From Phoronis australis (taxonomy: Eukaryota > Animalia > Phoronida): 64,000 nucleotides of DNA. The DNA is taken from contig NMRA01000387.1 of NCBI GenBank assembly GCA_002633005.1, forward strand, positions 173,017 to 237,016, read 5' to 3'. How positions within the stretch are numbered: position 1 is the stretch's first letter; every line of letters starts with the position of its first letter. Positions 17,961 to 64,000 of the stretch are shown in pieces. The notes under the pieces are model-generated. The model did no database searches. It was not told the DNA's origin and worked only from the letters and a program-made list of their open reading frames with translations. The translations under genes and the position numbers were made by a program.

Positions 17961-18189
17961 CGTGTCAGACAAGTCTAGAAAAGAGCGTGAAAGGGAGCGC
18001 CGAGAGCAATACAAGCAAGTGAGAGCACATGTCAAAAAAGACGATGGACGTCTGCAGGCATATGGGTGGAGCCTACCCGCCAAACTGACGACTATCCCCA
18101 CCCACCAAAGCTCGCAAAACAAACCACAGGTGCCAGTACCTGTCCCTGTCTATTGCCGCCCTCTGTTGGAGAAAGAACATGGAATGAAG
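17961..18189 (+). CDS. MAPK8IP3: JIP3/4 exon (REQYKQVRAHVKKDDGRLQAYGWSLP...PVPVYCRPLLEKEHGMK)
   Basis: ttacag acceptor, AAG|gtgggt donor. Confidence 0.96.
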
Positions 18190-19754
18190 GTGGGTTGTTG
18201 GTTTTTCTATAAATGATATCAGTGATATTTCTGCCACATTTTTGGTAAACAACTACTAACTTGACAACTGATGTGAATTGAATTTGAATGATTCAGGTAA
18301 TTAAATTTTTGTGAGAGTCAGGGATGTCATTTCCCGTTATCGAAGTAAAAGTATCTTAGACATTGTTTTAAAACATTCCTCATTATTTTTCAACTTTAAA
18401 CCAGTCAATCTTTTGTGAGTCGAGCATTTCAAAAGTTTATCTCATCAATACACAGATTTTGCCGTAAACTGTCCTGCTAGACCAATAGGGAAACAAAGTC
18501 AAGGATTTTGGCCTACAGTACATAGCATTAACTAAACTACCGTGAAGCACAGGTATTGAATCAGATACACAGTCATACAGTCGTTCATTTTGTCTTAGTA
18601 TTGTGACAGAAGCATGATAAGTTAAAATTTAATCAGATTTTTTGGTGCAATGGGGACAGAAATGTCCATGAATGATGATAAGATCCACAATACTAAGAGC
18701 TCTATTATGTAACATGTTTAAACCACGAAGGGTCTTTAACACTTGCAATATGGTGGTCTGATCATGATAATCACTGAAATGTACTTATAAAAGCTCCTGT
18801 GTTGTGATGTACTGAAGTTATAAACTCTGTCTTGGAAGATTTTAAAGTAGCTATAAACTCGACTTTCATTACAAAAATCAGCTTTAGATTTAGAACTCTT
18901 ACCAATAGGACACAGATTGTCCTCAGTCAGATTGGAGGTGATTTCAGGACTGGAGACACTGACAGTACATTATTGCTTGAAATGAGCCTCTACTATTTGG
19001 CAAGTCATGACATGTCATTTTATGCCNACCGAACATGATCTAAAAGAATATTAATGAAATTCAGTTCTTTGCAAACACAGAAAACCCTTCTTATCTGAGT
19101 AAGGAACAACTTGAAATCAAATTTTCAATGGTTGTGGTCTAAATCAAAGTTTTGCTTTGTAGACAGAACATGGATTGATAACGTCTTTAAATTAATTTGT
19201 AAATTCTTAAAGCCATTAAGCGTGTAACAATCAGCCCTTACCTTGAATGAAACCATGAGTTTTGGCAATGCTCCTATCTGTATTCATTGAGAAAAATCAA
19301 AAAGATCTCCAAGAAGGCATAAGTGACATACACTGTATCGTTCAATGGTTATACAGTGTTTAGTGGTTGTGTTTCATATAGGGTTTTGGCCTAGACTAGT
19401 GCATTTTGTTTGCCGGTTTTGTTTATTAATTCAAGGCTGTGGAAATGCCATGCACGCAGGGGTTGATAAAATAAAATTTTTAACAATGTGTGCTGACTTT
19501 CATCTGTTTTTCTTGCTTTCACGTCTTGTTCCAAAGTTCAAAATAAACAAAGTAAATAGACGATCAGTTCTGGATATTTGTCACAGAAACGGAAAGTTCA
19601 CAACAGACAAAAGTGTCGTAAACCAAGTTTAGTGTTCATGCGCAAACACCAATTTACAATAAGTGTTGTAAAGCAATCTGCGTTTATGCACGAATACCAA
19701 ATCAGTCCCATTTTCAAGCATAGCTTTACAGATATCAGATTCTGCCTTAATATG

Positions 19755-19977
19755 TGGTAAAATCTCACCAATTTTGGACAAAAAGAATTTAACAAAATGA
19801 CATTTTTGTGTTTTCAGGCATTTCTCACATTGTTGCCTGCATTTTTTCGAAACTTTATCTAAGGCAGTTGTAGTAGAAAACTTGAAAATGGAGAAGAATA
19901 ATATGTTTTATGCAAAAACTGATAGAATGAAAATATTCGCTTGTCGTCCACAGTTTCATAATGGAGAGCTTTTACCA
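19755..19977. mobile_element. MITE (ggtaaaatctcacca TIR family)
   Basis: Imperfect TIRs; same family as 53189-53426. Confidence 0.55.
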
Positions 19978-21589
19978 TTTTGCATATCGCTGTGGTCATT
20001 CTCCTTTGATGTAGCTCACTGCATATCAGATATGTGGGTGGCTAGTCTGCCTTGATGTATCTTTAAATATCTGGTCATTAGTTCTAAATGTAGCTTAACT
20101 GCACATTTGCTATGCCCGCCTACAGCGTATGAGATAATTGTGTGGTAGTTTTACCGTGGTGCACCTTTATTGCATATCAGATATGTGGTTGTAACCTGTA
20201 GTTTGTAGGTGACAGCTGTAAATGGACAAGCCATGAACTCAAGGTTTGAATGATGGCTTCTTATCCATTTCATTTCATCTCCCTGCATGCTGATGGTTCT
20301 TATCACAATGGCTTCACTTGGTTGACACAGAAATGCATGTTGCATCACCATAGTGGCTTCAATTGAATCATTTTAGGCAATAATCTTTTGACAAATTTAA
20401 GGAGCAAAGCTTGATGCTGCGCTGTATTTAATCTCATCCTACACTGTCTATTTTTGCATTTTTCGTATTTTTACACTTGAAAACCTCCAGAATTTGATTT
20501 TTTGACTTAATATAAATCTGTCATTAATTGGGTCACAAGCCCATGTCTTTTTAATAAAAAACAAAAAATTGTTATAATTGGTCGGGATGAAATTTCAAAA
20601 ACACTGTTTCAGTTTTCTAAACAACTGTTTCGTTTTTGCCCCTAATGTAAGTTTAACATTAAAAATACGACTAACAGCATTTTGGAAAGATGTGCGTTAA
20701 AGCTAAATCGCAATATCTGAAAGTTTCGTTTCATTCTGCTATTTGGGAGGAAAGATGTTCCAAAGTTATCCAAATTTTAATGTTTTTCTAGGGTCTGACA
20801 TAACCTTAACTGGCAAACAGAATTCAGTGTCATATAAACTCTTAGTATTGGGTGTTTTTGTTTGGTATTTATTATATATTAGTCACAGATAAATCTGACA
20901 TTCTTGAGACTGACTGGTAAAGTCGTGCGATTTTCTGACAACCGCAAGGTGATTTTTCATCCACAAAATTCCGTAAGGACCCTTTCAATAAAAGGAGTTG
21001 GCACTTTTGTAGTCTTGTATTGCCTACCTGGTAACACACCAGTCCCCTACATCATGAAGATATAAAAAAAAAAACAATAAGACATTTCCTTCAAGCCCAC
21101 GCTTGTGTTCAGTTTGCCTTCCATGGACATGAAGTTTTAATTACCATGTGTCTCCATCACCCTGCCGCCTTTCTAATGATGAATTTTAACAGCTTTACTA
21201 TGCACTTTATAGTTTGTAAGTAGCTTAAATGCTGCCAGGATGTGCTCCAGATTGCAGGTGAAAGTACTAACACCTGTATGCACCCAGTGTGACTTCTGGG
21301 TCATTTAATGAGTTTGCAACAAAAGACAATTATATTTGATGATAATTTTGGCTTATGTGTGGGTTAAAGGTAATTCCAGTGTGAAGTCTTGTTTTATACC
21401 CAAAGCACAGCATGCTGTTTGTTAAGGCAATTACTTCACTCTATAACAGTGCACACCTAGGACCATATCACTCCCAGTTGCACATAAAAGCCCTGCAGTA
21501 GTCACAGGTAATTGCCCTTAATTTTTGTGTTGTAAACAATATTTGTTGATAGATTACACAAATGCATACATGTTCAGTTAATTGGCATA

Positions 21590-21920
21590 ATAGGTTTAAT
21601 CCCTAATCACAGTTTTATTATAACATGCTGCCTTTCTTTCTTGTTCTGACACCTGCCAGGTGACATGTCAACACTCATAATCCTTCCATTGTTTCCTTCT
21701 GGGTTCAACCATGTGACTGAAGCTGGCTTCCTATTGGCTGATGGTTTTCATGTGTCAGATGGCTGTCAGTAAGGTGTCCATGTTAATGGCAGGATTAGGT
21801 CTGTGTGTTATTCAGTCTATGGGGGTGACAACTGTCAGGCATTTAGTACAAGGTTCTTCCCTTGACGCCTGTCATTGTCTCTGTAGTATAAAGGCCCTGG
21901 TCTGGGCTGAATTGATCATA
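21590..21920 (+). promoter_or_regulatory. Promoter of the nested intronless gene
   Basis: TATAAAGG at 21887, Inr-like TCATA at 21916-21920, reverse CCAAT at 21733, eight TGACA/TGTCA at 21647-21874, three TAATCC/GGATTA. Confidence 0.65.
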
Positions 21921-21985
21921 ACCAATCGACCAGCCTTTGAATACACACATTTGACTGAGAAGACATTGGACACTTGATTGAAAGG

Positions 21986-22282
21986 ATGGAGAGGTTTCGC
22001 CTGCATGCACAACTCTACCAGACTCAACAGAAGTTCTTAATGAGCTGCACCCAACTCAAGTTGCTGGACCGTGAATTGAAGGACTTGTGTGTACGCCACA
22101 AGCGAGCAATGAGTAGGGGTAACAAAGGTATATCAGCCCAACTTTTCACCAGATGGATGTGCACGAACAATTTACGGCAGGTGTACTTCTGTTACGTCCA
22201 GGAAAAAGCACAGGAAGTAATCGACTTAAGATGGAAGGCATTTGGCGAAGACGACGACTGGAGGGACATATTCTCATCATAA
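21986..22282 (+). CDS. Nested intronless gene, 98-aa uncharacterised helical protein (MERFRLHAQLYQTQQKF...DIFSS)
   Basis: AGGATGG Kozak context, coding-like composition, own TATA promoter, ATTAAA at 22617; not spliceable into the JIP3 frame. Confidence 0.75.
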   Translation: MERFRLHAQLYQTQQKFLMSCTQLKLLDRELKDLCVRHKRAMSRGNKGISAQLFTRWMCTNNLRQVYFCYVQEKAQEVIDLRWKAFGEDDDWRDIFSS

Positions 22283-23230
22283 ATGGTCACATCATGTGCC
22301 TGAGAAACCAACAGTCCTTTTAAGGACTACCCACACCATCCAAAGAGATCTGTTCACTTACTGAGTATCATTGGACCAGTTAATTCACTTCATATGTTAT
22401 TGTTCCAAAATTTGTTCTGATGTTAACTGCTCACAATGCTGAAATACGTAAATCGGTTCCAAATTAGTAAAATTAATATTTTATACCATCATTGGAAATG
22501 TCATTTTTTAAAACGCCTTTTGAATTTCCCAAGCTCTGTATATAATGTGTTAGGAACATGCGTTACAAATATTATGATTATGAATTTCTGCTTTATTTTG
22601 GCATGGTTTAGTGTTCATTAAATCAACGCTTGATCAACTGCTGTTTATTGCTAATTAATATGGTAAGCCGTTGATCATTGGAAAAAATGCCAATGAATAT
22701 TGGTGGTAATTTGTGCGTGCAAAATGATATAATTAGGATTTCAGTAAAATGTCTGTTTGACAGTTTACATTCGAATAGGTGGTATTGCAATAATTTCCGA
22801 GTTGATGATACTAGCAAGTTGCAAAAATCTTCATATTACTTTACTGTCAAAAGTCGTGCTTTATCAGCACAGTTTGGCAATCAAGTATTAGTAAATTGTA
22901 AGTAATACAGTCAAGTTTTTATTTTGTGTTGGAGGCAAAAATCTTCAGTAAAAAACTCTCAATTAAATAATCGCCACTGTCTGCAATTTGTGTTTCTGAA
23001 ACTTGTTGGAGAAATTAAAGGGACCATTTACCAAGTATTTTTTACTGTGATTATGCACTGTCAGTAATAACCTCTGAGACTAGGAAACAACTGATCATGT
23101 GTTGTTTGGTCATGTTTTTAAACTCTGTTATTGTTTCTATCCATTTTAAGAATGTTCAAATAATCTCCCATGATGTTGAATACCACCAGTTGTATATTGA
23201 TGGACATATTATTCTCGGGTTTTATTACAG

Positions 23231-23377
23231 ATGTGGTGCGCTGCTGGAGTGACCTTGTCTGGTGGCCGCACGCAAGATGGCGGATCAGTAATTGGAGCTA
23301 GCGTGTTCTACACTAATCCACCAGAGGACACTGAGAAACCAACTAACGACTTGGAGAAACTCAGCAGTGAATTAGAT
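23231..23377 (+). CDS. MAPK8IP3: JIP3/4 exon (MWCAAGVTLSGGRTQDGGSVIGASVFY...)
   Basis: ttacag acceptor, GAT|gtaggg donor; conserved WCAAGV. Confidence 0.95.
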
Positions 23378-25010: not shown

Positions 25011-25259
25011 GTGCAAAAGAGAACGACTTTCCTGTTGACGAGGAATTCTTAAACATTGGTGAGAGCACACAATCTGAGTCATCCAGTCAGAGTCAGATGA
25101 GTAAGAACTCAAGCTCGGCCAGTCTGACCAGTGAGAACAGTGGAAGTACCGATGCAACTGGGATAGGGGGCGTTACCTTTGTGCAGTGTGCAACAGGAAG
25201 TAGTCGAGCTAGTAATGCAGCAACACCTGTTGGCTCACCAGCGACACCAACGGTGAAAG
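25011..25259 (+). CDS. MAPK8IP3: JIP3/4 exon (GAKENDFP...TPTVK), Ser/Thr-rich linker
   Basis: caatag acceptor, AAG|gtatgg donor. Confidence 0.9.
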
Positions 25260-25639
25260 GTATGGGAAGTGTGTAATCGTATAAAAACAAGTCTTCTACA
25301 GTAGCTGCTGTAAACTCTTGTGTATTGCATGTAAACTCATTCTGTATTGACAGTCATTAATTTTGTTTAATCCGTGTTCTAGAAAATTGGGGTTCTGTTT
25401 TGTTCAGTTTATCTAATAATTAAACTTTTATCCGTAGCTTGGTTTGTAGCGTAGTTGTTACATTTTGCTTATTTGCTGCGATTAGTGAAATGGGAAAAAT
25501 GACAATTTTTGCCAATTGTATTCAGCTGATTGTAGTATTTGGCATGCTGCTTTCATATGGTTACTTAATTGCCGATTTCATGCTGCCAATTATGTTAACA
25601 TTGCTACATTCATACTGTTCCACTCCTGTTAATACATTC

Positions 25640-25835
25640 ATATTGCTGCTTTTGCATTATTTGCTACTTTCATATTGCTACTTTCATATTGCTACTTTCA
25701 CATTGGCTACTTTCATATTGCTATGTTCATATCGCTACGTTCATATTGCTACTTTCATGTTGCTCCGTTCATATTACTTCTTACATATTGCTCCATTCAT
25801 ATTGCTGCTTCCATATTCCTACTTCCATATTGCTA
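25640..25835. repeat. 15-bp minisatellite (catattgctactttc); second copy ~26900-27101
   Basis: Tandem degenerate units. Confidence 0.85.
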
Positions 25836-25837
25836 AG

Positions 25838-25915
25838 AGCTGAGTCCTGAAGCCAGAACCAGTATTACACAAGTAACTGAGGCCGTACAGAATATGACAG
25901 CTGATACTCTCCGAG
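25838..25915 (+). CDS. MAPK8IP3: JIP3/4 candidate 78-nt phase-1 exon (ELSPEARTSITQVTEAVQNMTADTLR); duplicate at 27104-27181
   Basis: ctaag acceptor, GAG|gtaaca donor, open frame; the only difference between copies is synonymous (CTC/CTT). Confidence 0.65.
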
Positions 25916-28353
25916 GTAACAAGCATTAGGTTATAATTTGCACGTGATAGGAAATGCGTGAGAGCAAGTGTTATCCTTATTGCAGTGTATCTGTCCATTT
26001 AGTGCACGGAATAGCCACGTCCCCAATTCATACTCTCCTCTTTTGCGGAGATAGAGAACGCACTGTTTGGATGACTGACTTTAATTTATTGTTTGGTAGA
26101 TAGGCAACTAAGACACTTTTGAGGTGGACATTAATAGAAATGGTTTACCACACCCTGCTGAACTTGTTGGATTCGTTGGTGTCAACAATGAAGACAAGCT
26201 GTACTGCCCTTGACAAAAGATACATTTACGTATTTTTCATTAGGCTCAGTATTCTTATTAAAGCTGTACTTTGCCCTGTTTAGCTGGCTGAAACAAAAAT
26301 CGAATTGGGCCTTTAATTCTCATAAAATAGGTCTAAAATTCCTTGCCATGATAGGGCTTTTTTTCAATGATAAAGAATAACATAAAATTACAGGCCTTCA
26401 TATACTGGTTATGAGATGCAGTAGAAAANAGTAATGCAGCAACACCTGTTGGCTCACCAGCAACACCAACGGTGAAAGGTATGGATAAAGTGTGGAATCG
26501 TATAAAAACAAGTCTTCTACAGTAGCTGCTGTAAACTCTTGTGTATTGCATGTAAACTCATTCTGTATTGACAGTCATTTATACTCTAGCTCATTCATCA
26601 TTAATTTTGTTTAATCTGTGTTCTAGAAAATTGGGGTTCTGTTTTGTTCAGTTTACCTAATAATTAAACTTTTATCCGTAGCTTGGTTTGTAGCGTAGTT
26701 GTTACATTTTGCTTATTTGCTGCGATTAGTAAAATGGGAAAAATGACAATTTTTGCCAATTGTATTCAGCTGATTGTATTCAGCTGATTGCAGTATTTGG
26801 CATGCTGCTTTCATATGGTTACTTAATTGCTAATTTCATGCTGCCAATTATGTCAACATTGCTACATTCATACTGTTACACTCCTGTTAATACATTGCTG
26901 CTTTTACATTATTTGCTACTTTCATATTGCTACTTTCATATTGCTACTTTCACATTTGCTACTTTCATATTGCCATGTTCATATTGCTACATTCATATTG
27001 CTACTTTCATGTTGCTCCGTTCATATTACTTCTTTCATATTGCTCCATTCGTATTGCTACTTCCATATTGCTACTTCCATATTGCTACTTCCATATTGCT
27101 AAGAGCTGAGTCCTGAAGCCAGAACCAGTATTACACAAGTAACTGAGGCCGTACAGAATATGACAGCTGATACTCTTCGAGGTAACAAGCATTAGGTTAT
27201 AATTTGCACGTGCTAGGAAATACATGAGAGCAAGTGTTATCCTTATTGCAGTGTATCTGTCCATTTAGTGCACGGAATAGCCATGTCCCCAATTCATACT
27301 CTCCTCTTTTGCGGAGATAGAGAACGCACTGTTTGGATGACTGACTTTAATTTATTGTTTGGTAGATAGGCAACTAAGACACTTTTGAGGTGGACATTAA
27401 TAGAAATGGTTTACCACACCCTGCTGAACTTGTTGGATTCGTTGGTGTCAATAATCAAGATAAGCTGTACTGCACTTAGCTGGACAAAGGATACATTTAC
27501 GTATTTGTCATTAGGCTCAGTATTCTTATTAAAGCTGTACTTTGCCCTGTTTAGCTGGCTGAAACAAAAATCGAATTGGGCCTTTAATTCTCATAAAATA
27601 GGTCTAAAATTCCTTGCCATGATAGGGCTTGTTTTCAATGATAAAGAATAACATAAAATTACAGACCTTCAATACTGGTTATGAGATGCAGTAGAAAATC
27701 GTTGGTTTTATTAGTTGGCCAATCCTATAATTCTCAAATGGCATACAAAGATAAGCCAGTCACATGACCGATGACACTCAATGAGTGGCCATTTCCTGTG
27801 AGTTCAGTAGATCAGCTGTTGATTTTGACTCTAGTTGAAAACTTGAAATATATTTAAAGTGACAGCTTAACATTGCACAATTCAGCTTTATTTACAGTAC
27901 TGTACAAGCAGTGTAGCATTGTGATATTTTAAGAAGTGTGTAACTTGTCGCTGTTAGATCTGTTCATAGTTAGCTCAGAACCTAGCTACAAACCAAACCA
28001 AAACTCTGTGAAACAGATAAAAACTCAAGTCTCGTTTTGTAACTTGACAAAAACTTTAGATCCTCGTGGATTCTTTCCATGAGCCACTACTCTTGTACCA
28101 TAAGCATGTCCCTGTTTTTACTCTAAAAGGCACTTGCTAATTTCAACCTATCCATAACATGCTCAAAGTTTTTGTAAATTTCTCTAAACCCAACTTTTAA
28201 AAGGCTAGTGGTAACATTTTTATTTCTTACTTTATGTCCTTTCATCCATGCATCTGTTTTCTTGTCCTTCTGTCAGTCTGTTTGTCTGTCTGTGTTTTTG
28301 TCTGTTATTAATGTCTGTCTGTCTGTGTGTCTCACGGTTTGACTTTACTTTAG

Positions 28354-29930: not shown

Positions 29931-30900
29931 CCGTATTCACCCTAATAAGCGCCCATGCCACTATAAGCGTCCCCTACGCATTTTCAGACTTTGCTAAAAT
30001 AAGCGCCCAGCCCATGAACGTGACTGCGTATACATGCGAAAAATGCCTTACCTGCAGTTCTAAAATTCTATAGTAACGTCTTCAATTTATCAATAATATC
30101 TGACAGTCCTGACAGGCCTTTCAGAACAGACGCAGCTTACTTATCAACAGGATTGTATCGTATCTTTCCTGTACAGATTTTCTCCCTCAACAGGAATCTA
30201 GACTTTTTTGTACACGTGAAAACTGCAAATCGAAGACTAATAAAAAAACTTGACCAGTGTTAAAAGCCCATGGCAAGGAAGCGCACACTACATACATGTA
30301 GGCCTGCTACTGGGGCGAGTGAACTCTGACGACACGCACGTGCTTGCTTGCTCGGCACACACCTGCAGACGAACTTCAAAACAAATGTCACGTGACAACA
30401 ACATGTGTGTTTGTGGGCTGTTCATCCATATTTTTCTCGTGTTGCTGGGTGCGATCTAGCGCAGATTTGGACTTAATCGGCAGTTAATCCCGACTCCACT
30501 GGAAATTAAAAATCTTAGGGACGCTATTTAGAAAACTTTAGGAGGATTTCAGGTAATTTGTTGAGTCGAAACTGTATTTTTATTCAAGAATTCAAGTTGC
30601 CCTAGTGACGATCGCGAGGCAGCGACGCATCAGTTGGCGAGTTTTCACCCAGGGATTTCCGCACAATTTTCTAAAAAAGGATCTAATTTAACAATGAAGT
30701 TTGATAGCAATGCACCACAGTTGTGTGGAAAGTCTATCATAGGTTATAGATATGTCGCAGAGTGTAAATTTGATGAATCTTCGCTTCCAATTTCACCCGT
30801 TTTGGAGAGCGGATTTCAACCGCCTTTGGCTACAATGAGCGCCCCCCCTCCCAAAGCGAGTTTTTCTAAGCTCCCTGGACGCTTATTAGGGCGAATACGG
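29931..30900. mobile_element. Non-autonomous Tc1/mariner-type element (~970 bp)
   Basis: TIRs CCGTATTCACCCTAATAAGCG / CGCTTATTAGGGCGAATACGG, flanked by TA on both sides; partial second copy 31812-32658. Confidence 0.85.
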
Positions 30901-33131
30901 TATATCAATTTATCATTGGTTTTGTGGAAATGCAGTTCTTGCTGTTTTTGCATGAAGTATCCCTTGATGTGGGGTAGTATCCCCTTATGTGGGGTAGTAT
31001 CCCCTTATGTGGGGTAGTATCGCCTAAAATGGGCCTTAGCTTACTACTATTGCTCAATATTATATAATTCTCTTATCCTGTTCCTCCCCTTTTCCTATTT
31101 CTTGGGGCATTTTGCTGCAGTATGCAAATGCTGTACACAGCTAGCTCTCCTTTACAGTCTCACGCAGCACTAGTAAGGTCAAGCCAAAGAGGCAAACTCC
31201 AATGTGAATAAATCAAGTTAGTGACGGTAAATCTTTCAGTTGTAGTAATCAGCCAGCTTCATTCGGTCCGTGATGTAACTAGGAGTTTCAACTCATTGTT
31301 TTCAAAAACCAAAACAAAGGATTCCATCCCTAAGGGCTGTTCCAGCAAAATCTGTATGGGAGGGGGGGGAAGGCACTTTTATTTCGTACCCACCGCCCAT
31401 ATTTTTCATTTATTTCTCCAACCCATGACCCATAATTTTTTAATTATTTTTAATAGGTTAAAATATAAAATCCAACACTTGCAAACAAATTGCCTCCAGG
31501 AGGACCTGTTAAGAACTTAGATGATTGACAGACAAGAACTAGTTGTCTTGTCCAATATTGTCAAAAATTAAAGTAGCCTGTGAACAATACTTTTGGCAGC
31601 CACCAGGTGTCTCTGTTCACCATGTGTCTATAATTTCAATGAACATTTTTTCAATTATAAGGATCTATGAATCTCAAACTGTCTCCACAAACTCTTTTAT
31701 ACTTCTATGTCAAGTGAATATTGGAACTTGTTTATCTTACTCCTCATACTTTTTATTTAAAAATCATCAATTTTCTTATATGTGTTAACACCAGTTTAGT
31801 GTTGCATAACNTGCGAAAAATGCTTCACCTGCAGTTCTAAAATTCTACAGTAATGTCTTCAATTTATCAATAATATCTGAATGTCCTGACAGGCCTTTCA
31901 GAACAGACACAGCGTACTTATCAACAGGATTGTATCGTATCTTTCCTGTACAGATTTTCTCCCTCAACAGACTTCTTTGTACACGTGAAAACCGCAAATC
32001 GAAGTCTAATAAAAAAACTTGGCCAGTGTTAAAGGCCCGTGGCCAGGAAGCGCGCGCTACATACATGTAGGCCTGCTACTGGGGCGAGTGAACTCTTGAT
32101 GACACGCACGTGCTTGCTTACTCGGCACACACCTGCAGACGAACTTCAAAACAAATGTCACGTGACAACAACATGTGTGTTTGTGGGCTGTTCATCCATA
32201 TTTTTCTCGTGTTGCGGGGTGCGGTCTAGCGCAGATTTGGACTTAATCGGCAGTTAATCCCGACACCACAGGAACTTAAAAATCTTAGGGACGCTATTCG
32301 GAAAACTTAAGGAGGATTTCAGGTAATTTGTTGAGTCGAAACTGTATTTTTATTCAAGAATTCAAGTTGCCCTAGCGACAATCGCGAGGCAGCAATGCAT
32401 CAGTCGGCGAGTTTTTGCCCAGGGATTTCCGCACCATTTTCTAAACAAGGATATATATTTACAATTAAGTTTGATAGCAATGCACCACAGTTTTGTGGAA
32501 AGTCTATCGTAGGTTATAGATATGTCGCAGAGCGTAAATTTGATGAATCTTCACCCGTTTTGGACAGCGGATTTCAACCGCCTTTGGCTACAATAAGCGC
32601 CCCCCCTCCCAAAACGAGTTTTTCTAAGCGCCCTGGACGCTTATTAGGGCGAATACGGTATGTCAATTTATCATTGGTTTTGTGGAAAGGCAGTTCTTGC
32701 TGTTTTTGCATGAAGTATCCCCTGATGTGGGGTAGTATCCCCTTATGTGGGGTAGTATCCCCTTATGTGGGGTAGTATCCCCTTATGTGGGGTAGTATCC
32801 CCTTATGTGGGGTAGTATCGCCTAAAATGGGCCTTAGCTTACAACTATTGCTCAATATTATATAATTCTCTTATCCTGTTCCTCCCCTTTTCCTATTTCT
32901 TGGGGCATTTTGCTGCAGTATGCAAATGCTGTACACAGCTAGCTCTCCTTTAAAGTCTCACGCAGCACTAGTAAGGTCAAGCTAAAGAGGCAAACTCCAA
33001 TGTGAATAAATCAAGTTAGCGATGGTAAATCTTTCAGTTGTAGTAATCAGCCAGCTTCATTCGGTCCATGATGTAATTAGGAGTTTCAACTCATTGTTTT
33101 CAAAAACCAAAACAAAGGATTCCATCCCTAA
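30035..33131. repeat. ~1.3 kb direct duplication (30035-31333 / 31812-33131); second copy begins after single N31811
   Basis: Near-identical copies; probable allelic haplotypes. Confidence 0.88.
30961..31020. repeat. 20-bp VNTR (ccccttatgtggggtagtat) x3; x5 at 32719-32818
   Basis: Head-to-tail units, no spacers. Confidence 0.9.
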
Positions 33132-60992: not shown

Positions 60993-62409
60993 ATGGCGAC
61001 TTCCGAAAACAATGTGGTGTTCGTAACCTCCAAAGAAGCCGATGCCAACACCGTGAGTGTCGACATCGAATCGCCCGCCAAAAACAGAATACGAGGCACT
61101 CCAGTCAGTGGTGCGACTGCTAAACCGCGAAGATTTCCCATCTTGTTTGAGAGAGCTGCAAAAAGCTGGTACAACCCTAGATTTAACTCTACCCTTCTCG
61201 AGAACCAAGTTGGAGAAAGTTTCTTCCCCCAGACTCGGACGAGATTCCAGTTTGGCTTGGGATACATCATCTTTTGCTGTGTTGTTTGGACCATCTTCTT
61301 TTCAATTCAAGGCGAGGACCATTGGACCAGTTATATTATAGGAACACTATCTTTATTAGCCGTTTCTGTTTTGATTCTTATATTTACGTTCACGAGGTTT
61401 TATGAGTCCTATTTTGTACCGGTTTCACTTGGCTTGTCCATAATATTGTGTGCCCTGGTCTGTGGACAGTTTGGTCTACAGCCGTCTAATTTGTCCACAG
61501 TTGGCGCATTCACGGGCGCCATTGAAATAATTTTCCTGATGTATACTGTGTTCCCTATGCCGTTATACTCTTGTGTTTTAATTGGAGTCATATTTTCAAT
61601 TGTGTTTGAAGTATTGTGCGCGGTTTTGACTGACATGACGAGTGGTCACTTTATCGTTGGAAAAATCATGCTCCATATCTGTATTCATCTTATTGGCATT
61701 CACACGTTCATCATGTCTCAAGTACGTAAACGAAGTACATTCTGGAAGGTTGGACAATCAATCATTGCTCGCAGAGATTTACAAGTTGAAAAGCAACTCA
61801 AAGAAAAAAGCATCCACTCACTTATGCCTCCCAAAGTGGCGCGTGAAGTCATTGGTGCACGTGACACCTCCAAAAGTGCTGATGGAAAAATTGCCTTTCG
61901 TCCATTTAACATGCACGACCAGGACAATGTTAGTATATTATTTGCCGATATTGTCGGTTTCACAAAAATGAGCTCCAATAAGACGGCGGAACATCTTGTT
62001 GATTTACTCAATGATTTATTTGGCCGGTTCGACAAACTCTGTGTGGAGTGTGGTTGCGAGAAAATCAGCACTCTGGGTGACTGTTACTACTGCGTCTCTG
62101 GTTGTCCTGAGGCACGTGATGACCATGCAGTGTGTTGTATTGAGATGGGTCTGGGAATGATCAAGGCGATTAAAGAGTTTGACGAGGACAATAATGAACA
62201 AGTAAACATGAGAGTGGGTGTTCACACTGGCAAGGTGCTCTGTGGTATTGTGGGTACACGCCGGTTCAAGTTTGACGTTTTCTCCAATGATGTTGATCTA
62301 GCCAATTATATGGAGTCATCTGGGAAGCCAGGTCGTGTGCACATCTCAGAGATGACCTATGAGTTTGTCAAGGACGAGTACGACGTTGAAAAGGGATCAG
62401 AAGTTGACG
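60993..62409 (+). CDS. ADCY9: Adenylate cyclase type 9, first coding exon (N-terminus, M1 transmembrane helices, C1a); 3'-partial
   Basis: LFERAAKSWYNPRFNS, IHSLMPPKVA, AFRPFNM, VSILFADIVGFTKMSSNKTA, CEKISTLGDCYYCVSGCPE, NMRVGVHTG, FKFDVFSNDV are AC9-type motifs; CAAGATGG start; donor GAC G|gtaggt (alternative AG|gtgagc at 62413). Confidence 0.95.
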
Positions 62410-64000
62410 GTAGGTGAGCCACGCTGTAGTGGGCAGCGAGACTTGTGGTTAAACCCCTTATTGAAAAAGTATTTAATGGGTGAAATCCAAATTGTTAGGC
62501 ATTTCAAGAAAGCATAGTTGGTTCTGATCTGTGTTCGACTGTGCAACTCATTTTGTGTCCTGTGCTCATCGACAAGAAATGAAAATGTCCGCCCGCATTA
62601 TTTCTTGTCAAGATCTCGTGTTTTTGTCAAGGTCTTGTGTTTTTTTGAAGCTCCAGTCAAGCACATAAGCAAAGGCAACCAAGATTTGATTTGAAACTTG
62701 GCACAATTTGCTAAGCGATGAGTAAAAGAAAAGGAAATCTGTTCTTGACCCAAGAAGATTTCTTTTTTGAAAAAATGAACAGTAACTGAAAACAAATACT
62801 GCACGTCCATTTTCAAAACCAACTATGCTAATACAAAGCCTCTGATATGAGCCTTTGTATTGCCAAATTCAATTCATTCTGGATGTTATGTGTTATTCAT
62901 ATCACACTGTAACATCCCAACTAACAAATTGTAATTTGATATCCAGTTACAATCCAAGAAAACCTTGGCATATGTGCGACCTTTCAACTACGTTGCATGG
63001 TGCGTAACTGAAATGCAATGATGATGGAAGTCAATCACCATTGTGAGCTATGATCCCTACTATGCTAAAGTTCTCTGATAGAACACACCATTGGAACATT
63101 CAGTATAAATTTAACTTGTTTGATTTTGACATTGGCTTACAAAAACCAGTCCAGCTCTGACTTGCCTGGTATCTCTAGTCTAGGGAAGTTTGATAATCAC
63201 ACAAAATTTCTTAGGAATCAAATTAATTCCAGCACTAATATTTATGTATTACATTTAAAGCAATTGTCTGATACAACGTGTCCTTATTTTGAGAACCAGT
63301 TTGATGCCTGTTATTCAGTGGAGAAAGCTGGTTCAGGCACGTTATATCAGGCCATTACCACATTTAAAGCTGCCTTTTGAAAATGAAAAAGGAGAATTTG
63401 GCTTATACTCTCATAAAATCGGTCTCATAATACTGGTTGTAAACAGCACTAGAATTGTATCATGTTAAGGGATGTTCCCAGACCGATTTTATGAGTCTGA
63501 GTAAAAAGCCATTCAATTTTTGGAACAGTGTGAAAAATGTCATGAATAAAATCTACTCTGTTATTCTAATTAAAACATTTTGAATTATCAGTGGCTATGG
63601 AATGAGTTATCCAAAGTGTTTAATGTTTTCCTTGTCCCCTCAGGTGTTAGTTATATTAGTTAGCTTCATAGCTTCACAGTTTCTCTATTGTACTTAAACA
63701 CTTCAGACAGGGTGGCAAAGTGCATAGGACTCCTTTGCATATTTCTGTGCTTGGCTTCCTATCGTCCAGGGTAACTTTATTATAATGATTCTGCTAATCA
63801 ATGTTCAATTTGAAGTTGCATCCATAAACAGCCTGCACAGATGTATTACATTCCAGGTACATAAGTTTTGGATTAAGGGGAGCATTTCTGCTGCACTCTT
63901 TTTTTCCGTTGGGCGCATTTAATTATAAAGCTCGATCATGTTATCAGCCAGCATAACATGTTTGTATTAAGTGTTTCTATTTGTCTAGACACTATTCTGC

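What the first reader, a model, noticed from the sequence alone, without database searches (positions are those of the whole stretch)
21986..22282. Intronless, same-strand gene nested in a JIP3 intron, encoding an uncharacterised 98-aa helical protein
Seen: a complete compact transcription unit inside the 18190-23230 intron, with TATA box, Inr-like site, short 5' UTR, good-context ATG, coding-like ORF with amphipathic heptads (LYQTQQKFLMSCTQLKLLDRELKDLCVRHKRA...LRQVYFCYVQEKAQEVIDLR) and ATTAAA at 22617. The flanking JIP3 exons join in phase without it. From memory, unverified, it resembles a multicopy family of unannotated ~100-aa lophotrochozoan proteins of the pattern 'LY.AQ.KF..SC.QI.LLN..I.DL..RY.RA...R.MYY.YA'. 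I recognise no named domain. Same-strand nesting is the less common arrangement and requires the host to read through its poly(A) site. This is the best candidate for an undescribed system in the window.
Basis: partly seen in the sequence, partly recalled or inferred. Interest (0 to 1): 0.85.

Follow-up and report, generated by a model that had tools for sequence, protein, structure and literature searches.

The report
Non-histone gene with histone mRNA end
A small intronless gene inside another gene's intron belongs to an unnamed protein family of molluscs and ribbon worms whose genes end in the RNA hairpin and downstream signal otherwise known only from histone genes, so its message is likely finished without a poly(A) tail by the histone route.

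Summary
The 98-aa ORF is real and lies in a JIP3 intron that RNA reads splice out in frame. It is a divergent member of an unnamed lophotrochozoan family (41 family hits of 42 at E<=1e-3; named members in bivalves, a limpet and nemerteans). The family folds as a basic two-helix hairpin with an acidic tail (pLDDT 92) and has no Pfam or PDB relative. Thirty bases after the stop lies a histone-type stem-loop, ACCCA and a purine-rich downstream element (Rfam RF00032, E 6.7e-7, 32.4 bits, just under the gathering score of 34). The same hairpin follows 41 of 45 homologous genes, with compensatory changes. Homologs are intronless, TATA-driven, sometimes tandem, once in a repeat with 5S and U1 genes. 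Papers call histone mRNAs the only ones ended this way. The mRNA is therefore likely about 415 nt, non-polyadenylated and SLBP/U7-processed. This is untested: three RNA runs show no independent transcript, and the protein's role, probably chromatin-associated, is inferred.

The parts
17961..18189 (+). Upstream host (JIP3) exon
   Evidence: RNA depth and joint 18189->23231; in-frame join
18190..23230 (+). Host intron that holds the nested gene
   Evidence: GT..AG, 5041 nt skipped by 12/10/0 reads in X1/X2/X3
21597..21797 (.). Three TAATCC/GGATTA sites (K50 homeodomain-type, label recalled) and an inverted CCAAT at 21733
   Evidence: 3 observed, 0.18 expected; picked after the fact, not significant after multiple testing
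21647..21874 (.). Cluster of TGACA/TGTCA sites (TALE-homeodomain-type core), three of them near-palindromic 12-mers
   Evidence: 8 sites in 300 bp, the densest stretch of the window; 3 of 5 window matches to TGACASSTGTCA with 1 mismatch lie here, 0.66 expected window-wide; TGTCA also enriched in homolog promoters, 35 against 17
21887..21892 (+). TATA box
   Evidence: most homologs carry a TATA-like box 50-240 nt before the ATG
21916..21921 (+). Initiator-like TCAT, predicted start at 21918
   Evidence: 31 nt after the TATA start; similar spacing in many homologs; start not seen in RNA
21986..22282 (+). Intronless ORF, 98 aa: two-helix hairpin (residues 2-43, 47-86) plus short acidic tail
   Evidence: (95 bits against a profile built without it)
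22313..22328 (+). Histone-type stem-loop: 6-bp stem, 4-nt loop, second pair G-C, top pair U-A
   Evidence: RF00032 match 22308-22353, 32.4 bits, E 6.7e-7; only match to the pattern in 64 kb, both strands; folds at the predicted mature end
22329..22333 (+). ACCCA, predicted cleavage site and mRNA 3' end
   Evidence: sequence; position by analogy with histone pre-mRNA (recalled)
22342..22347 (+). Purine-rich histone-downstream-element-like box (AAAGAG)
   Evidence: 13 nt after the stem; purine box 12-16 nt after the stem in 25 of 28 aligned ends against 46 of 669 control windows
22617..22622 (+).
   Evidence: position not conserved in homologs
23231..23377 (+). Downstream host (JIP3) exon

Best explanation
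This is a solitary, divergent copy of an unnamed lophotrochozoan multigene family for a basic helical-hairpin protein with an acidic tail, and its gene ends in a histone-type stem-loop and downstream element, so its mRNA is likely cut by the SLBP/U7 pathway, left without a poly(A) tail, and likely made in bulk with histones in S phase or early embryos to supply a probably chromatin-associated protein. Shown: the ORF, family membership, intronless layout, the hairpin plus purine box and their conservation with compensatory changes, tandem arrays in relatives, and splicing of the host intron over the gene. Inferred: a start at 21918; SLBP binding and U7-guided cleavage at 22333 (family-wide about 0.85); that this copy is expressed (about 0.65); activation by TALE-type homeodomain factors through the TGTCA cluster in cleavage stages or germ line (about 0.4); and a role as a histone or DNA partner through the conserved basic and aromatic face of helix 2, with a chaperone-like acidic tail (about 0.4). 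The host transcript likely escapes cutting because histone 3' processing is coupled to the gene's own promoter (recalled knowledge).
For: Family: 42 hits at E<=1e-3 among 1.84 billion representatives, 41 of them family, 1 a repeat artefact; 172 further hits with the profile; P0001 scores 95 bits against a profile built without it. 3' signal: RF00032 full-length match, E 6.7e-7; pattern expected 0.2 times per window by chance, found once, 30 nt behind the stop; hairpin behind the stop in 41 of 45 homologous loci, 12 of 15 promoter clusters, and behind all 5 copies in each of L046 and L047. In 28 aligned ends, pairs G2-C15, C5-G12 and U6-A11 never vary, pairs 1, 3 and 4 change on both sides, 17 cells, 0 of 500 shuffles. 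Purine box in 25 of 28 against 6.9% of controls. Histone-like gene organisation: one uninterrupted ORF in 44 of 45 loci, tandem copies, linkage to 5S and U1 genes; histone genes are 5S-linked in mussels (PMC13525598, passages). Protein: pLDDT 91.9 hairpin, median core charge +7, tail -6. Promoter TGTCA 35 against 17 expected in 15 clusters, Wilcoxon p 0.004.
Against: No independent transcript: depth over the ORF is about 1, like the rest of the intron; reads run upstream of the TATA and across the predicted cut site; no start or end pile-up (tissue and library selection unknown, 18-19% of each run read). The Rfam score, 32.4, is under the gathering score of 34 and the whole-window gathering scan is empty; only 2 of the 20 loci pass gathering. 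With the downstream element attached, the 78-nt minimum-energy fold is another structure (z -0.29). Pair 4 is a mismatch in 15 of 28 aligned ends. This copy has lost much of the family's conserved helix-2 face (F49, R50, Y51, R54, E61, G62, Y68 of the consensus) and lies on a long branch. L041, L045 and the second L027 copy lack the hairpin and L024 has an altered one. Nothing here ties the protein to chromatin. Loci were found with a narrow alignment and over-represent one clade (21 of 45).
Confidence: 0.6

Rival explanations
1. The family is a real client of the histone pathway, but this copy is a silent or decaying orphon that moved into the intron.
For: No independent transcript in X1-X3; loss of conserved helix-2 residues; long branch and unusual composition; broken copies exist in the family (L045).
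Against: ORF, hairpin core, TATA-initiator spacing, TGTCA cluster and a perfect 6-bp stem with its purine box are all intact, though the intron DNA has no blastn match to any homolog locus; this suggests lasting selection. A poly(A)-minus, stage-limited mRNA would be missed by ordinary RNA-seq.
Confidence: 0.18
2. The gene makes an ordinary polyadenylated mRNA ending after ATTAAA 22617, or both forms like H2A.X, with the hairpin as a passenger.
For: ATTAAA is present; H2AFX keeps both signals (PMC4604434, passages); 27 of 37 sequences have some AATAAA/ATTAAA within 400 nt; some family proteins are annotated in NCBI gene sets.
Against: Those hexamers are scattered in AT-rich flanks, while hairpin and purine box keep tight spacing and covary; no read pile-up ends near 22640.
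Confidence: 0.1
3. The family is a selfish or virus-derived gene that borrows the SLBP/U7 pathway and spreads by tandem amplification and transposition, with no host function.
For: Varied settings: intron, 5S array, 5S-U1 repeat, tandem and divergent pairs; high copy number (clusters of up to 102 members); an unchecked scan note reports a Polinton gene with such ends (e1-8580448).
Against: No terminal repeats or duplications round this copy; no relative in viral contigs, PHROGs or BFVD; my listing of long ORFs in the loci showed nothing that looked like a transposase (by eye); near-invariant residues across phyla.
Confidence: 0.07
4. The mRNA end is histone-like but the protein is a non-chromatin coiled-coil adaptor, such as an ESCRT-III-like or HR1-like hairpin used in cleavage divisions.
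For: ESCRT-III, PspA and Vipp1 hairpins recur among fold matches (Z about 10) and share a basic core and acidic end (recalled); weak HR1 hits in 12 of 99 members.
Against: Matches are generic (217 chains at Z>=8; Foldseek E>=0.25; 5-20% identity); HR1 hits reach 17.6 bits against a cut-off of 33.1 and cover about half of the model; the family lacks further helices.
Confidence: 0.15

Closest known systems
Metazoan replication-dependent histone genes (stem-loop RF00032, histone downstream element, SLBP, U7 snRNP)
   Same: Intronless, TATA-driven, short UTRs, 6-bp/4-nt hairpin followed by ACCCA-like bases and a purine box 12-16 nt on; multicopy, tandem arrays, 5S linkage; one possible hairpin-less subfamily recalls replacement variants.
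   Different: The protein is not a histone: two 40-residue helices, no histone hit in PDB sequences or for this protein in Pfam; no histone gene in any fetched locus; one large clade has a mismatch at stem pair 4.
H2A.X (H2AFX) dual 3' end
   Same: Hairpin and downstream element with a further poly(A)-like hexamer behind them.
   Different: Hexamer position is not conserved in the family; the protein is unrelated.
Acidic-tailed histone chaperones (nucleoplasmin, NAP1/SET; recalled)
   Same: Small protein with a D/E/S-rich C-terminal tail (net charge <= -3 in 83% of 64 non-redundant members).
   Different: No sequence or fold match; their mRNAs are polyadenylated (recalled); the core here is basic.
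ESCRT-III/PspA, HR1, ROP, ING N-terminal and prefoldin helical hairpins
   Same: Antiparallel two-helix hairpin, rmsd 1-3 A over about 85 residues.
   Different: Generic geometry, 5-20% identity, no match standing above the rest.
Nested intronic genes
   Same: A whole unit inside a spliced host intron.
   Different: Same strand, and likely without a functional poly(A) site; the nesting is not seen in homolog loci.

Membership tests
Replication-dependent histone genes | Encodes a histone (histone fold or H1 winged helix) | tested here: not met
   Confident model is a two-helix hairpin; no histone among 10 PDB sequence hits at E<=5 with the family profile; Pfam gives this protein only a phage family at E 0.17
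Replication-dependent histone genes | 3' stem-loop of 6 bp and 4 nt with invariant G2-C15 and U6-A11 | tested here: met
   Rfam score 32.4 is just under gathering 34
Replication-dependent histone genes | Purine-rich downstream element about 12-16 nt after the stem | tested here: met
   AAAGAG at 22342; 25 of 28 ends against 46 of 669 controls
Replication-dependent histone genes | Downstream element pairs with the organism's U7 snRNA | not testable with these tools
   no genome held, U7 not available
Replication-dependent histone genes | Intronless coding region | tested here: met
   window and 44 of 45 loci; the 45th is broken
Replication-dependent histone genes | mRNA not polyadenylated, ending after the hairpin | tested here: inconclusive
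   no independent transcript in X1-X4
Replication-dependent histone genes | SLBP binding and S-phase-coupled expression | not testable with these tools
   needs experiment
Unnamed lophotrochozoan hairpin family (alignments A1, A2) | Gap-free ~82-aa core with L10, F17, C21, Q23, L27, R37, A41, L53, Y67, Y70, K74, L81, R82 | tested here: met
   95 bits, E 2.5e-22 against a profile without it (the profile rows were first found with this protein); column table
Unnamed lophotrochozoan hairpin family (alignments A1, A2) | Helix-2 surface motif (F49 R50 Y51, R54, E61 G62, Y68 in 73-92% of members) | tested here: not met
   this copy has I49 S50 A51, F54, N61 N62, F68: a divergent member
HR1 domain (PF02185) | Pfam gathering score over the full domain | tested here: not met
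   best 17.6 bits against 33.1, about half the model
ESCRT-III/PspA | Hairpin plus further helices and detectable sequence profile | tested here: inconclusive
   hairpin geometry matches at Z about 10 with many unrelated chains; Snf7 and PspA are not among the 25 of 74 Pfam families shown
ELM1 mitochondrial fission protein (label on five JGI hits) | ELM1 domain | tested here: not met
   the five labelled proteins of 109-110 aa have no such Pfam hit; likely a transferred label
Transposon fragment | Terminal repeats, target-site duplication or transposase homology | tested here: not met

The most novel reading that the evidence does not exclude
Lophotrochozoans have an ancient, overlooked 'sixth histone-class' gene family: a non-histone chromatin protein whose multicopy, intronless genes are switched on by TALE homeodomain factors, processed by SLBP and U7 into poly(A)-minus mRNAs, arrayed with 5S and U1 genes, and backed by a hairpin-less replacement-type subfamily. 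It was missed because poly(A) RNA-seq does not capture it. This window holds a diverged paralog with a remodelled binding face.
Probability: 0.4. Interest if true: 0.92.

Novelty: new variant of a known kind. Interest (0 to 1): 0.8.

Why it matters
Replication-dependent histone mRNAs are described as the only eukaryotic mRNAs that end in a stem-loop instead of a poly(A) tail (PMC4604434, PMC5054213, passages). A non-histone family that keeps the full signal with compensatory changes would break that rule and name a second client of SLBP and U7. It gives a direct test (3' RACE, poly(A)-minus RNA-seq, SLBP pull-down in oyster, mussel or limpet embryos). It would explain why a widespread multicopy family has no name, warn that poly(A)-based atlases of spiral-cleaving embryos miss a gene class, and point to an unknown protein that these animals may need in step with DNA replication.

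Tried and rejected
No genome was held, so paralogs, histone genes and U7 of this organism could not be examined. Word-indexed protein search and exact look-up with the ORF found nothing; only the full HMMER scan did. Atlas feature scores were 0.80 and 0.77, below the lead threshold; its best structure row was an unnamed, mostly mollusc cluster. No second copy in the window. Codon-usage scoring was uninformative. No RNA holder was listed for the stretch; X1-X4 came by species label. Fold searches gave only generic hairpins, none at E<=0.001. PDB sequence searches gave nothing under E 0.05. The homodimer job on a typical family member gave no verdict (score 0.01, alignment not used), so it says nothing either way. 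Recalled likenesses to the PBX PBC domain, the H2A alpha2-alpha3 junction and the ING N-terminus found no support in Pfam or PDB searches and could not be tested by profile comparison, because no histone or PBX sequences were obtained (two hairpin-pattern scans of viral contigs gave 0 hits and 1 phage contig). The tree is a quick one with most forks open; dN/dS was impossible without a close ortholog. Literature: 10 searches; searches returned 0 papers; the listings showed no title or abstract opening on a non-histone family with histone ends. Two papers recalled by DOI (5S-U1 linked units of razor shells; early evolution of histone 3' processing) were not held and may bear on priority. No supplements were read; subscription papers were not searched.

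Full report
Observation. The 98-aa ORF at 21986-22282, the TATA box (21887), the initiator-like site (+1 at 21918) and ATTAAA (22617) are as described. The host intron 18190-23230 is spliced out by 12, 10 and 0 reads in three RNA runs carrying the same species label, and the flanking exons join in frame. The host has a JIP leucine zipper. The neighbouring adenylate cyclase 9 exon is closest to Haliotis, Lineus and Owenia at 51-53%, so the animal is a lophotrochozoan. ORF length is weak evidence alone: 15.8% of simulated introns give one as long, and codon usage is uninformative.

Family. Pfam, the word-indexed search and the exact look-up were empty. The full phmmer scan gave 42 hits at E<=1e-3, best 6.5e-9; one is a repeat artefact and was dropped. 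The profile found 172 proteins at E<=1e-5 among 1872 candidates. The window protein scores 95 bits against a profile without it. The core of about 82 residues is gap-free and basic (median +7), the tail acidic (median -6). With 99 aligned sequences AlphaFold gives a two-helix hairpin at pLDDT 91.9. Fold searches return only generic hairpins. Helix 2 is conserved on all faces in the family, which suggests a binding surface; this copy keeps the buried core but has changed most of that surface and sits on a long branch of a poorly resolved tree.

The main finding. Scanning homologous loci for RNA families turned up the histone 3' stem-loop, and the window has it too: stem 22313-22318 with 22323-22328, four-base loop, ACCCA, then AAAGAG at 22342. 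Rfam RF00032 matches over its whole length at E 6.7e-7 with 32.4 bits, under the gathering score of 34. The pattern occurs once in the 64-kb window, where 0.2 matches are expected, and it lies 30 nt behind this stop on the sense strand. Of 45 homologous loci from metagenome contigs, 41 carry the hairpin (at least 5 of 6 pairs), nearly all 25-65 nt after the stop, three at about 170 nt and one before a shifted stop. The four others are one cut at the contig end, one broken copy, one altered hairpin and L041, which belongs to a distinct subfamily. Grouped by promoter similarity that is 12 of 15 clusters; 21 loci belong to one clade. The relaxed rule gave 6 further hits in 170 kb of both strands: two belong to neighbouring copies, two are the reverse strand of a true hairpin and two are chance. 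In 28 aligned ends three pairs never vary and three change on both sides (17 cells, 0 of 500 shuffles), though pair 4 is a mismatch in 15 rows. A purine box follows at 12-16 nt in 25 of 28 against 46 of 669 control windows. The hairpin is the minimum-energy fold at the predicted mature end (z -2.85 for 31 nt, -1.44 for 51 nt) but not when the downstream element is attached.

Gene organisation. The domain lies in one uninterrupted ORF in 44 of 45 loci. L019 holds a tandem pair, L027 a divergent pair, L043 and L044 lie among 5S genes, and a 15-kb contig filed in a bacterial assembly, evidently animal DNA, is a 2.14-kb repeat of this gene, a 5S gene and a U1 gene. No histone gene was seen in any locus. 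Mussel histone repeats are 5S-linked (PMC13525598, passages).

Promoter. The 300 bp before the TATA box hold 8 TGACA/TGTCA sites, the densest stretch of the window, with three near-palindromic 12-mers (motif recalled as a MEIS/PKNOX/TGIF dimer site). That choice was made after looking, but the same 5-mer is enriched in homolog promoters: 35 observed, 17 expected, 15 clusters, Wilcoxon p 0.004, third of all 5-mers. TGACAG is the Prep half-site of TALE complexes at zebrafish genome activation (10.1101/720102, passages), and expanded TALE genes are switched on in early spiral cleavage (PMC12550047, passages). Early-embryo expression is thus an inference; germ-line TGIF-type control fits as well.

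Expression. Not shown. Depth over the ORF is 0.6-1.3, within the intronic range; reads extend upstream of the TATA box and, in X1, across the predicted cut; no starts or ends pile up. X3 has three read pairs over 21764-22091, deeper than most of its host exons, but they begin before the TATA box. Tissue and library selection are unknown, and a poly(A)-minus mRNA would be lost from poly(A)-selected libraries.

Mechanism. Most likely the gene is run like a replication-dependent histone gene: transcription from 21918, SLBP on the hairpin, U7 on the purine box, cleavage after 22333, an mRNA of about 415 nt, made in S phase or stored for cleavage. A protein made on that schedule, with a basic conserved face and an acidic tail, is most simply a chromatin component or histone partner; that step rests on analogy only. 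The host intron can be read through because this processing is normally tied to histone-type promoters (recalled). Rivals: a silent orphon, a polyadenylated or dual-end mRNA, a selfish element, or a non-chromatin adaptor.

Comparison and novelty. It works like a replication-dependent histone gene but is not a member: the protein fails the histone test. Two papers state that histone mRNAs are the only ones ended this way, and a human SLBP CLIP study found no non-histone target (PMC4604434, abstract and passages; PMC5054213, passages). Ten literature searches showed no description of this family or of such an exception; subscription papers and supplements were not seen, and two recalled papers were not held. 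Notes from other windows of this scan, read after I had found the hairpin, describe what seems to be the same family; they are unchecked and are not counted as evidence, but they mean this window is one more instance, not a first sighting.

Verdict. A real gene of an unnamed family with a conserved histone-type mRNA end; known machinery, new class of client. Interest 0.8. The nesting is incidental, and expression and protein function remain to be shown.

Noticed in passing
L046-L048 (15-kb contig in a bacterial assembly): Animal DNA contaminating a metagenome-assembled genome: a 2.14-kb tandem unit of the family gene with its histone-type end, a 5S rRNA gene and a U1 snRNA gene. Published 5S-U1 linked units of bivalves (recalled) may hide the same gene in their spacers.
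   Followed up: partly
L041:1781-2131: Member of a distinct subfamily (7 rows, support 98) with no hairpin, no TATA by my rule and an AG right before the ATG: possibly an intron-containing, polyadenylated replacement type. One locus only.
   Followed up: partly
L001-L021, 3' ends: A large clade keeps a C-A or A-C mismatch at stem pair 4 of the hairpin, which may tune SLBP binding.
   Followed up: no
L004, L005, L008, L012, L013 promoters: A conserved TAATCTAATCA element (like the recalled DUX-type paired homeodomain site) about 200 nt before the ATG.
   Followed up: no
L024:1017-1170; L031:589-625: L024 has a longer altered hairpin but keeps the purine box; L031 has two hairpin-like units in a row.
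   Followed up: no
P0169, P0173, P0183, P0184, P0188: JGI labels these family members 'mitochondrial fission protein ELM1', with no Pfam support: a likely propagated misannotation.
   Followed up: yes
P0105: A Mya arenaria model of 276 aa holds three copies of the domain in a row; may be fused tandem genes.
   Followed up: no
window 25211-27698 and 30032-33131: Two local duplications inside the host gene: 1.28 kb at 92% and 1.34 kb at 91%. The first overlaps the end of a JIP3 exon.
   Followed up: no
window 21200-21985: CpG is strongly depleted (observed/expected 0.08 against a window median of 0.52) upstream of the nested gene.
   Followed up: no
window 19755-19789: A short repeat shared with many unrelated transcripts (loose read ends on both strands).
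   Followed up: no
window 60993-62414: First large coding exon of an adenylate cyclase type 9 gene downstream of JIP3.
   Followed up: partly
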